Source: Gekko japonicus
Taxonomy: Eukaryota
Assembly: GCF_001447785.1 (NCBI RefSeq)
Contig: NW_015172017.1
Coordinates: 792,748-856,747 of the forward strand
Length of the DNA: 64,000 nt
Reading direction: 5' to 3'
Part shown: positions 31,700-31,917 of the stretch, in pieces
Layout of the letters: every line of letters begins with the position of its first letter
Position numbering within the stretch: the stretch's first letter is position 1
Notes under the pieces: model-generated
What the model was told of the DNA's origin: nothing
Database searches by the model: none
The model's input: only the letters and a program-made list of their open reading frames with translations
Program-made: the position numbers and the translations under genes

Positions 31700-31917
31700 C
31701 GCTGGAGAAACACGAAGAGGCGAGGCGAGGAGCCAGGTTTGCCGGACAGCCGGCAGGCGCGCGGACGCACCAAGGGGAGCCAGTGGCCAGGGAGACGCCC
31801 TATAAATCCTGGCTGCCTCCGCGCCGAAGAAGAAGTGAAACCCGACGGGAGAGTCGCCCTGGACCGCCCCCAAAGGCTCTTTTCAGATTCACCCACAGGG
31901 TCCAGGAAAAGAGCTGG
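31700..31917 (+). pseudogene. Histone H1-like gene remnant with nearly the entire CDS deleted
   Basis: AAACACG (H1-box-like) 31708, GCACCAA 31767, TATAAAT 31801, GCG CCG AAG AAG AAG TGA 31821-31838, stem-loop-like GGCTCTTTTCAGATTC-ACCCA 31875, HDE AAAAGAGCTG. Confidence 0.72.

What the first reader, a model, noticed from the sequence alone, without database searches (positions are those of the whole stretch)
31700..31917. 'Empty' histone H1 gene: promoter fused to the last codons and 3' processing signals
Seen, in order: AAACACG, a GC-rich tract, GCACCAA, TATAAAT (31801), then GCG CCG AAG AAG AAG TGA (APKKK*) 20 nt after the TATA start, a short UTR, CCAAA-GGCTCTTTTCAGATTC-ACCCA and an intact HDE (AAAAGAGCTG). 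There is no ATG. Known: AAACACA box + GC box + CCAAT + TATA is the H1 promoter signature, and H1 proteins often end in APKKK. Inference: a deletion removed the 5'UTR and ~99% of the CDS but left the control parts. If still transcribed it would give a ~70-nt capped non-coding histone-like RNA that could engage U7/SLBP. The stem has two substitutions (AGAGCC to AGATTC), so SLBP binding is doubtful and it may simply be decaying.
Basis: partly seen in the sequence, partly recalled or inferred. Interest (0 to 1): 0.75.

Follow-up and report, generated by a model that had tools for sequence, protein, structure and literature searches.

The report
Hollowed-out, decaying histone H1 pseudogene
A histone H1-type promoter is joined directly to the last five codons and the RNA-processing signals of an H1 gene, and because several of those signals are themselves mutated this is most likely an ordinary dead gene copy rather than a new working RNA.

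Summary
An H1-type promoter (31655-31807) runs straight into APKKK-stop, a 36-nt UTR, a histone stem-loop remnant and an HDE, with no ATG. A contig from a second sample crosses the join with 0 differences, so assembly collapse is unlikely. Look-alike promoters in the same species and in a relative continue into other sequence, and place the join at a 4-nt GCGC overlap (31821-31824; inferred from read depths). About 0.63-0.70 kb (leader plus ~98% of the CDS) is inferred missing. The control parts are not intact. The AC box reads AAACACG and the CCAAT box CCAAG, where both look-alikes are canonical. There is a 7-nt extra stretch before TATA, and no upstream TG box at the 355-356-nt spacing seen in 4 of 4 intact H1 loci. 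The stem-loop does not fold (-0.1 versus -9.3/-9.4 kcal/mol), and its freed arm is predicted to pair with the HDE and hide it from U7. One RNA-seq run gave no reads (weak test). Verdict: a decaying H1 pseudogene with an unusually clean internal loss; a functional ~70-nt RNA is unlikely (about 6%).

The parts
31655..31807 (+). H1-type proximal promoter block
   Evidence: Matched by a look-alike contig in the same species (X1 record 1 and X2 record 18: 14 other letters, one 7-nt gap) and in a relative (X10 record 9, 31656-31824: 16 other letters, 9 gap letters); homology starts sharply at 31655/31656
31708..31714 (+). AC box (H1 box), mutated: AAACACG
   Evidence: 31714 is A in both look-alike promoters; GGAGAAAACACAAG in 3 of 4 intact fish-type H1 loci, GGAGAAAGCACAAG in the fourth
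31767..31774 (+). CCAAT box remnant, GCACCAAG
   Evidence: 31774 is T in both look-alike promoters
31779..31785 (+). 7 extra bases between CCAAT remnant and TATA
   Evidence: Left out in both look-alike promoters (table 4)
31801..31807 (+). TATA box, intact (TATAAAT)
   Evidence: Sequence
31821..31824 (+). Inferred join; 4-nt overlap GCGC shared by the 5' and 3' sides
   Evidence: In organism B the 5' contig matches to 31824 and then runs on 63 letters unlike the window; bin-depth arithmetic puts a second contig at 31821-31864
31821..31838 (+). Last five H1 codons and stop (APKKK*)
   Evidence: L001 H1 ends KAAPKKK*; PDB 'Histone H1.3' chain ends KAAPKKK
31839..31874 (+). 36-nt 3' UTR
   Evidence: 31-45 nt in the four intact H1 loci
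31875..31890 (+). Broken histone stem-loop (G19>U, C20>U in the 26-nt numbering: one G.U wobble, one C-U mismatch)
   Evidence: Rfam Histone3 19 bits versus gathering 34; six other window stem-loops score 36.7-45.3; MFE -0.1 versus -9.4/-9.3
31907..31916 (+). Histone downstream element, sequence intact but predicted paired with the broken stem's 5' arm
   Evidence: 0 mismatches to AAAGAGCTG, 17 nt after the stem; mean P(unpaired) 0.02-0.03 versus 0.14-0.79 in 7 controls
31270..31341 (-). Flanking tRNA-Asp(GTC), ending 367 nt upstream of the AC box
31946..32020 (.). High-copy repeat starting ~30 nt after the HDE
   Evidence: Depth rises to 10^4-10^5 with hundreds of divergent contigs

Best explanation
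This is a real fusion of an H1-type promoter to the last five codons and 3' signals of an H1 gene, most likely a non-functional replication-dependent H1 pseudogene that lost about 0.65-0.7 kb by microhomology-mediated repair at a 4-nt GCGC overlap and has been decaying since. Shown: the join exists in a second sample's contig; the AC box, CCAAT box and stem-loop differ from canonical; the TG box is absent at its spacing. Inferred: H1 identity of what was lost, the size of the loss, the 4-nt overlap and the repair route. Predicted: any read-through RNA would not fold the SLBP stem-loop and would hide its HDE, so it would be neither well processed by U7 nor protected.
For: Join real: X2 contig, 462 nt, depth 80.7, covers 31517-31971 with 0 other letters and 0 gaps. 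Undeleted look-alikes: X1 record 1 matches 31655-31807 and runs on 244 letters unlike the window; X10 record 9 matches to 31824 and runs on 63; no joint is listed for them at this place. H1 identity: a scan for KKK-stop plus stem-loop gave 4 loci, 4 of 4 with H1-like ORFs. L002 and L003 were tested in Pfam and both hit Linker_histone; L001 matched PDB H1 chains; L004 was judged by likeness to L003 only. The AC box, not part of that pattern, lies 152-156 nt before their ATG with the same GGAGAAA context. Decay: 8 substitutions and a 7-nt difference are specific to the window against both look-alikes, hitting the AC box and CCAAT. Both being hit has probability ~0.09 under unconstrained change, so it is compatible with neutral decay, whereas purifying selection on the promoter predicts neither. 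Stem-loop pair probability is 0.00 versus 0.64-0.97 in 7 controls. No RNA reads on 31350-31924 among 16,753,912 records (weak).
Against: The letters that follow the look-alike promoters were not displayed, so no call shows an H1 CDS attached to them. X2 is from the same study as the possible source run and could be the same animal. X1's own exact contig was not listed (filter). TATA, HDE and G7 of the stem are intact, and the promoter keeps 15 CpGs in 152 nt. Relative-rate tests are not significant (8 vs 4, p=0.25; 8 vs 3, p=0.13). The four intact H1 loci look teleost-like (my recall) and have no CCAAT within 250 nt of the ATG, so the CCAAT part of the H1 signature rests on the look-alike contigs and on a passage in PMC12240685.
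Confidence: 0.84

Rival explanations
1. Origin variant (same dead end-state): no intact H1 gene ever stood here. A short piece (~31655-31920) was copied in from an H1 gene elsewhere, with a template switch at GCGC skipping the middle. This probability is conditional on the best explanation.
For: Homology to both look-alike promoters begins abruptly at 31655/31656 beside a poly-C tract, although they carry 519 and 258 further upstream letters. There is no TG box 354-356 nt upstream of the AC box, and tRNA-Asp occupies the DNA just beyond that point.
Against: Upstream flanks of histone paralogues diverge anyway, and the 82% likeness cut-off would hide diverged homology. No target-site duplication was looked for or seen. 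Orthology of the organism-B contigs is unknown.
Confidence: 0.3
2. The remnant is still used: TATA drives a ~65-70-nt capped RNA cut by U7 without SLBP, or the promoter serves as a landing site for histone-locus factors beside the tRNA and H2B genes.
For: TATA and HDE are intact. CpGs are retained (o/e 0.8-0.9 over 31601-31900). Mammalian SLBP is dispensable in vitro when the HDE pairs strongly with U7 (PMC3884669, passage). G7, the base SLBP reads, is kept, and G7-U20 stems still bind with lower affinity (PMC10388802, passages).
Against: AC box and CCAAT are mutated and the TG box is absent. An extra C8-U19 mismatch abolishes the predicted stem, and the HDE is predicted 97-98% paired. The 70-nt RNA has no structure beyond shuffles (z=-0.17). 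No reads in one RNA run (short non-poly(A) RNA would likely be lost).
Confidence: 0.06
3. Assembly artefact: the lysine-rich H1 CDS was collapsed or dropped.
For: No long reads were seen. The exact contig of the possible source run was not listed.
Against: A contig of a second run (sample S2) spans the join with 304 letters on the left and 147 on the right of 31821-31824 and 0 differences. The decayed motifs are independent signs of a pseudogene.
Confidence: 0.03
4. The remnant derives from another histone class or the two halves are unrelated sequences.
For: No CDS was seen attached to the look-alike promoters. Direct alignment to fish-type H1 promoters is poor outside the AC box.
Against: APKKK* matches H1 ends and not the window's H2A (…HKAKAK*) or H4 (…GFGG*) ends. 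The AC-box context is shared with 4 of 4 H1 loci. Organism B holds both halves as matching pieces that overlap by 4 nt.
Confidence: 0.04

Closest known systems
Replication-dependent histone cluster pseudogenes, e.g. human/pig H1-12P (HIST1H1PS1)
   Same: Non-coding H1 copy inside a replication-dependent histone cluster (PMC9526256, passages)
   Different: Here almost the whole CDS and leader are gone while promoter and 3' signals are joined; the passages seen do not describe the lesion in H1-12P
Vertebrate replication-dependent H1 gene (UCE/TG box, H1/AC box, CCAAT, TATA, stem-loop, HDE)
   Same: Order and spacing of AC box, CCAAT position, TATA, APKKK*, short UTR, stem-loop and HDE (element names from PMC12240685 and PMC6027317 passages)
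   Different: No ATG or globular domain; AC box and CCAAT mutated; TG box absent at 355-356 nt; stem-loop broken
U7/SLBP-processed histone pre-mRNA 3' end (Rfam RF00032)
   Same: CCAAA flank, UUUC loop, ACCCA, HDE 17 nt downstream
   Different: 19 bits, below the gathering score of 34; stem predicted not to form; HDE predicted occluded

Membership tests
Functional replication-dependent H1 gene | ORF with linker-histone globular domain | tested here: not met
   No ATG in 31655-31920; tblastn of 4 H1 proteins against the window gave only one E=0.86 hit, at an H2B N-terminus
Functional replication-dependent H1 gene | H1/AC box AAACACA | tested here: not met
   AAACACG; A in both look-alikes
Functional replication-dependent H1 gene | Upstream TG box (UCE) ~355 nt before the AC box | tested here: not met
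   Present at 355-356 nt in 4 of 4 intact loci; absent at 354-356 in the window; only 1-mismatch look-alikes at 312 and 341 nt
Functional replication-dependent H1 gene | CCAAT box | tested here: not met
   CCAAG; CCAAT in both look-alikes
Functional replication-dependent H1 gene | TATA box | tested here: met
   TATAAAT 31801-31807
H1-derived pseudogene | Homology of the 5' part to H1 promoters | tested here: met
   ~91% match to look-alike promoters carrying canonical AC box and CCAAT; AC-box context shared with 4 of 4 H1 loci; CDS behind the look-alikes not seen
H1-derived pseudogene | Homology of the 3' part to H1 gene ends | tested here: met
   APKKK* as in L001 and PDB H1.3; blastn to L003 3' end E=2.9e-4 (partly built into the search pattern)
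H1-derived pseudogene | Lesion real in genomic DNA | tested here: met
   X2 contig spans the join with 0 differences; same study as the possible source run
H1-derived pseudogene | Relaxed constraint (faster change than functional copies) | tested here: inconclusive
   8 vs 4 and 8 vs 3 specific substitutions, p=0.25 and 0.13; orthology of the comparators unknown
U7/SLBP-processed RNA | 6-bp stem, 4-nt loop with G7-C20 pair | tested here: not met
   G.U at pair 2, C-U at pair 3; P(stem)=0.00
U7/SLBP-processed RNA | HDE at the right distance and accessible | tested here: inconclusive
   Sequence and spacing met; predicted occluded, P(unpaired) 0.02-0.03; proteins and co-transcriptional folding not modelled
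U7/SLBP-processed RNA | Transcript exists | tested here: inconclusive
   0 reads on 31350-31924 in 3% of one cDNA RNA-seq run, tissue unknown, no positive control in the stretch
U7/SLBP-processed RNA | SLBP binding and U7-dependent cleavage | not testable with these tools
   Needs EMSA and nuclear-extract processing

The most novel reading that the evidence does not exclude
A natural histone 'minigene': the CpG-rich, TATA-intact H1 promoter still fires in S phase and yields a ~70-nt capped RNA cut by U7 without SLBP, or holds histone-locus factors for the neighbouring genes. That would make it a coding-free histone-type RNA or cis-element and a natural test of whether promoter plus 3' signals alone are enough for histone-locus function.
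Probability: 0.06. Interest if true: 0.6.

Novelty: new member of a known kind. Interest (0 to 1): 0.17.

Why it matters
As a pseudogene it matters little: histone clusters hold such dead copies (PMC9526256). It is a tidy example of a gene that CDS-based annotation would miss entirely. It also shows that two stem substitutions are predicted not only to remove the SLBP hairpin but to let the freed arm pair with the HDE. It would matter more only if a short capped RNA or histone-locus factor binding were found.

Tried and rejected
No own genome is held, so paralogues and synteny could not be read directly. No RNA holder was listed in the run index; this is no evidence either way. An amniote-type H1 promoter pattern in viral contigs gave 9 loci, none with an H1 tblastn hit or a stem-loop; dropped as chance. 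The KKK-stop plus stem-loop pattern gave 0 hits in viral contigs and 0 in prokaryote genome contigs. No displaced H1 CDS elsewhere in the window. Other Rfam matches in 31350-32020 (mir-1299, mir-324, DGCR5, PVT1_3; E 0.3-2.7) are far below gathering and were rejected. No AATAAA/ATTAAA within 1.5 kb downstream of the HDE on +. Earlier scan notes: nothing by place, words or sequence. Literature: no paper held all terms in the searches for U7-processed non-histone ncRNA, transcribed histone pseudogenes with HLB, or histone birth-and-death with biased gene conversion. One search found only PMC9526256. Searches listed nothing on a promoter-tail H1 fusion or squamate histone clusters (listings only). 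The library lacks most subscription papers, so this does not show absence from print. PMC12979687 (one passage) added nothing. No protein homologue search, structure or complex job was run, as there is no protein to test.

Full report
Setting. The window is a vertebrate histone/tRNA cluster: H2A (8505-8894, -), H2B (9335 +, 29399 +, 34163 -), H4 (14245 +, 36500 -), nine tRNA genes by ARAGORN and ten by Rfam-independent count are not both needed: ARAGORN lists 10 genes and Rfam 10 tRNA matches. I take it to be a squamate, probably a gecko, from recalled repeat types only; no call established this. No whole genome is held. The finding lies between tRNA-Asp (31270-31341, -) and a repeat nest starting about 31946.

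Observation. There is no ATG from 31655 to 31920. Stem-loop, stem-loop+HDE and promoter patterns occurred in 0 of 100 dinucleotide shuffles (patterns fitted with the site in view). One correction matters: GCACCAA is followed by G, so the box reads CCAAG.

Is the join real? The run index listed 24 runs; 10 hold part of 31350-32020, two hold half or more of its words. Four were laid. X2 (sample S2, same species and study as the possible source run X1) has a 462-nt contig at depth 80.7 covering 31517-31971 with no other letter and no gap, so the join exists in an independently assembled contig. It may be the same animal. X1's own exact contig was not listed; the tool says a filter drops some records.

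What was there before? X1 and X2 each hold a look-alike contig matching 31655-31807 (14 other letters, 7-nt gap); in X1 it runs on for 244 letters unlike the window. Organism B (X10) has a contig matching 31656-31824 that runs on for 63 letters. Bin depths imply a second organism-B contig over exactly 31821-31864 (the same arithmetic reproduces the 7-nt gap bin). The 5' and 3' matches therefore overlap at 31821-31824, GCGC, as expected of microhomology-mediated joining. This is inferred from depths, and the loose letters were not displayed. The join lies 20-23 nt after the start of TATA, so the native start site (usually ~25-31 nt after it; recalled) is inferred lost.

Is it H1? A metagenome scan for AAGAAGAAG-stop followed by a canonical stem-loop returned 4 loci, all with 200-211-aa H1-like ORFs. 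Two were scanned in Pfam and both hit Linker_histone; a third matched PDB H1 chains, the best ending KAAPKKK. L001 itself ends KAAPKKK*. The KKK ending is built into the pattern, but the H1 identity and the AC box are not. All four carry GGAGAAA(A/G)CACAAG 152-156 nt before the ATG, like the window's GGAGAAACACGAAG, and a TGTGTTT box 355-356 nt further upstream. Passages in PMC12240685 and PMC6027317 name the upstream conserved element and H1 box as H1-specific and CCAAT and TATA as conserved among H1 promoters; their figures and supplements were not seen, and the letter sequence of the H1 box is from recall and from these loci. From these spacings and H1 lengths of 200-222 aa the loss is about 0.63-0.70 kb, about 98% of the CDS (inference).

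Are the control parts intact? No. Against both look-alikes the window differs at 31695, 31699, 31714, 31736, 31764, 31774, 31790 and 31793, all three differ at 31718, and the window has 7 extra bases at 31779 (the table lists 13 of 14 and 12 of 16 reported differences for the two look-alikes). 31714 turns AAACACA into AAACACG and 31774 turns CCAAT into CCAAG. Hitting both has probability about 0.09 with no constraint. The excess of window-specific changes is not significant (p=0.25 and 0.13). No TG box stands at 354-356 nt. The stem-loop scores 19 bits against a gathering score of 34, while six other window stem-loops score 36.7-45.3. It folds at -0.1 kcal/mol against -9.4 and -9.3 for two controls. 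In the precursor the canonical stem has probability 0.00 in three contexts (0.64-0.97 in 7 controls). The freed arm GGCUCUUUUC is predicted to pair with GAAAAGAGCU, leaving the HDE 2-3% unpaired (14-79% in controls). This weakens the one escape route in the literature, SLBP-independent cleavage with a strong HDE (PMC3884669, passages). In fairness, G7 is kept and G7-U20 stems bind SLBP with lower affinity (PMC10388802, passages), but the window adds a C8-U19 mismatch.

Expression. Of 16,753,912 records read from RNA run X11 (about 3% of the run), 251 were laid. All were under 95% alike and at or beyond the 31925-31947 bin, in the repeat; none fell on 31350-31924. The tissue is unknown, there was no positive control in the stretch and a 70-nt non-polyadenylated RNA would probably be lost, so this is weak. 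In favour of residual activity: TATA is intact and 15 CpGs persist in 152 nt, though nearby tRNA genes may account for that (inference).

Origin. Deletion in place and copying-in with a template switch both fit. The sharp start of homology at 31655/31656 and the missing TG box lean toward a truncated or relocated copy, but flanks of paralogues diverge and orthology could not be set.

Comparison and verdict. It works like, and is best filed with, histone-cluster pseudogenes such as H1-12P (PMC9526256, passages). It fails the membership tests for a functional H1 gene and for a canonical SLBP substrate. My searches found no description of a promoter-to-tail H1 fusion, in a library that lacks most subscription papers. 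New member of a known kind; interest 0.17. The boldest reading not excluded, a coding-free histone-type RNA or factor landing site, I put at 0.06.

Noticed in passing
window 35987-36040 (-): The H4 gene at 36500 (-) has a second, 87% identical copy (47 of 54 nt) of its stem-loop and HDE region about 132 nt downstream; the stem still pairs (P 0.90-0.97) but falls below Rfam gathering and the HDE is more degenerate. Possibly a tandem fail-safe 3' end or a small duplication.
   Followed up: partly
window 31695-31793: Seven of the eight window-specific promoter substitutions are A/T to G (p about 0.006, post hoc; direction uncertain because orthology is unknown), which would fit GC-biased gene conversion eroding the AC and CCAAT boxes.
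   Followed up: partly
window 22899-25688 (-): Intact 929-aa single ORF with a BED zinc finger (Pfam zf-BED, E 3.8e-6); possibly a domesticated hAT-derived ZBED gene inside the cluster.
   Followed up: partly
window 55024-55320 (-) and 47795-48064 (-): RRM_1 exon and acidic C-terminal exon resembling hnRNP C (name recalled; Pfam RRM_1 E 5e-13), next to the histone/tRNA cluster.
   Followed up: partly
window 29399 (+) and 34163 (-): Two H2B genes facing each other have no divergent H2A partner; tblastn finds only one H2A in the window.
   Followed up: partly
window 14055-14690 (+) and 36056-36689 (-): The two H4 genes share about 640 nt including promoter and 3' flank at 88%, an inverted duplicate 21.6 kb apart.
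   Followed up: no
window 35112-35490: Tandem array with a ~79-nt unit, 89-95% identity between copies, between tRNA-Phe and H4.
   Followed up: no
L001-L004: These fish-like H1 promoters lack CCAAT within 250 nt of the ATG and a canonical TATA, but share a GGTTCTCA(T/C)G motif followed by TTTAA, and keep TG-AC box spacing at 355-356 nt.
   Followed up: no
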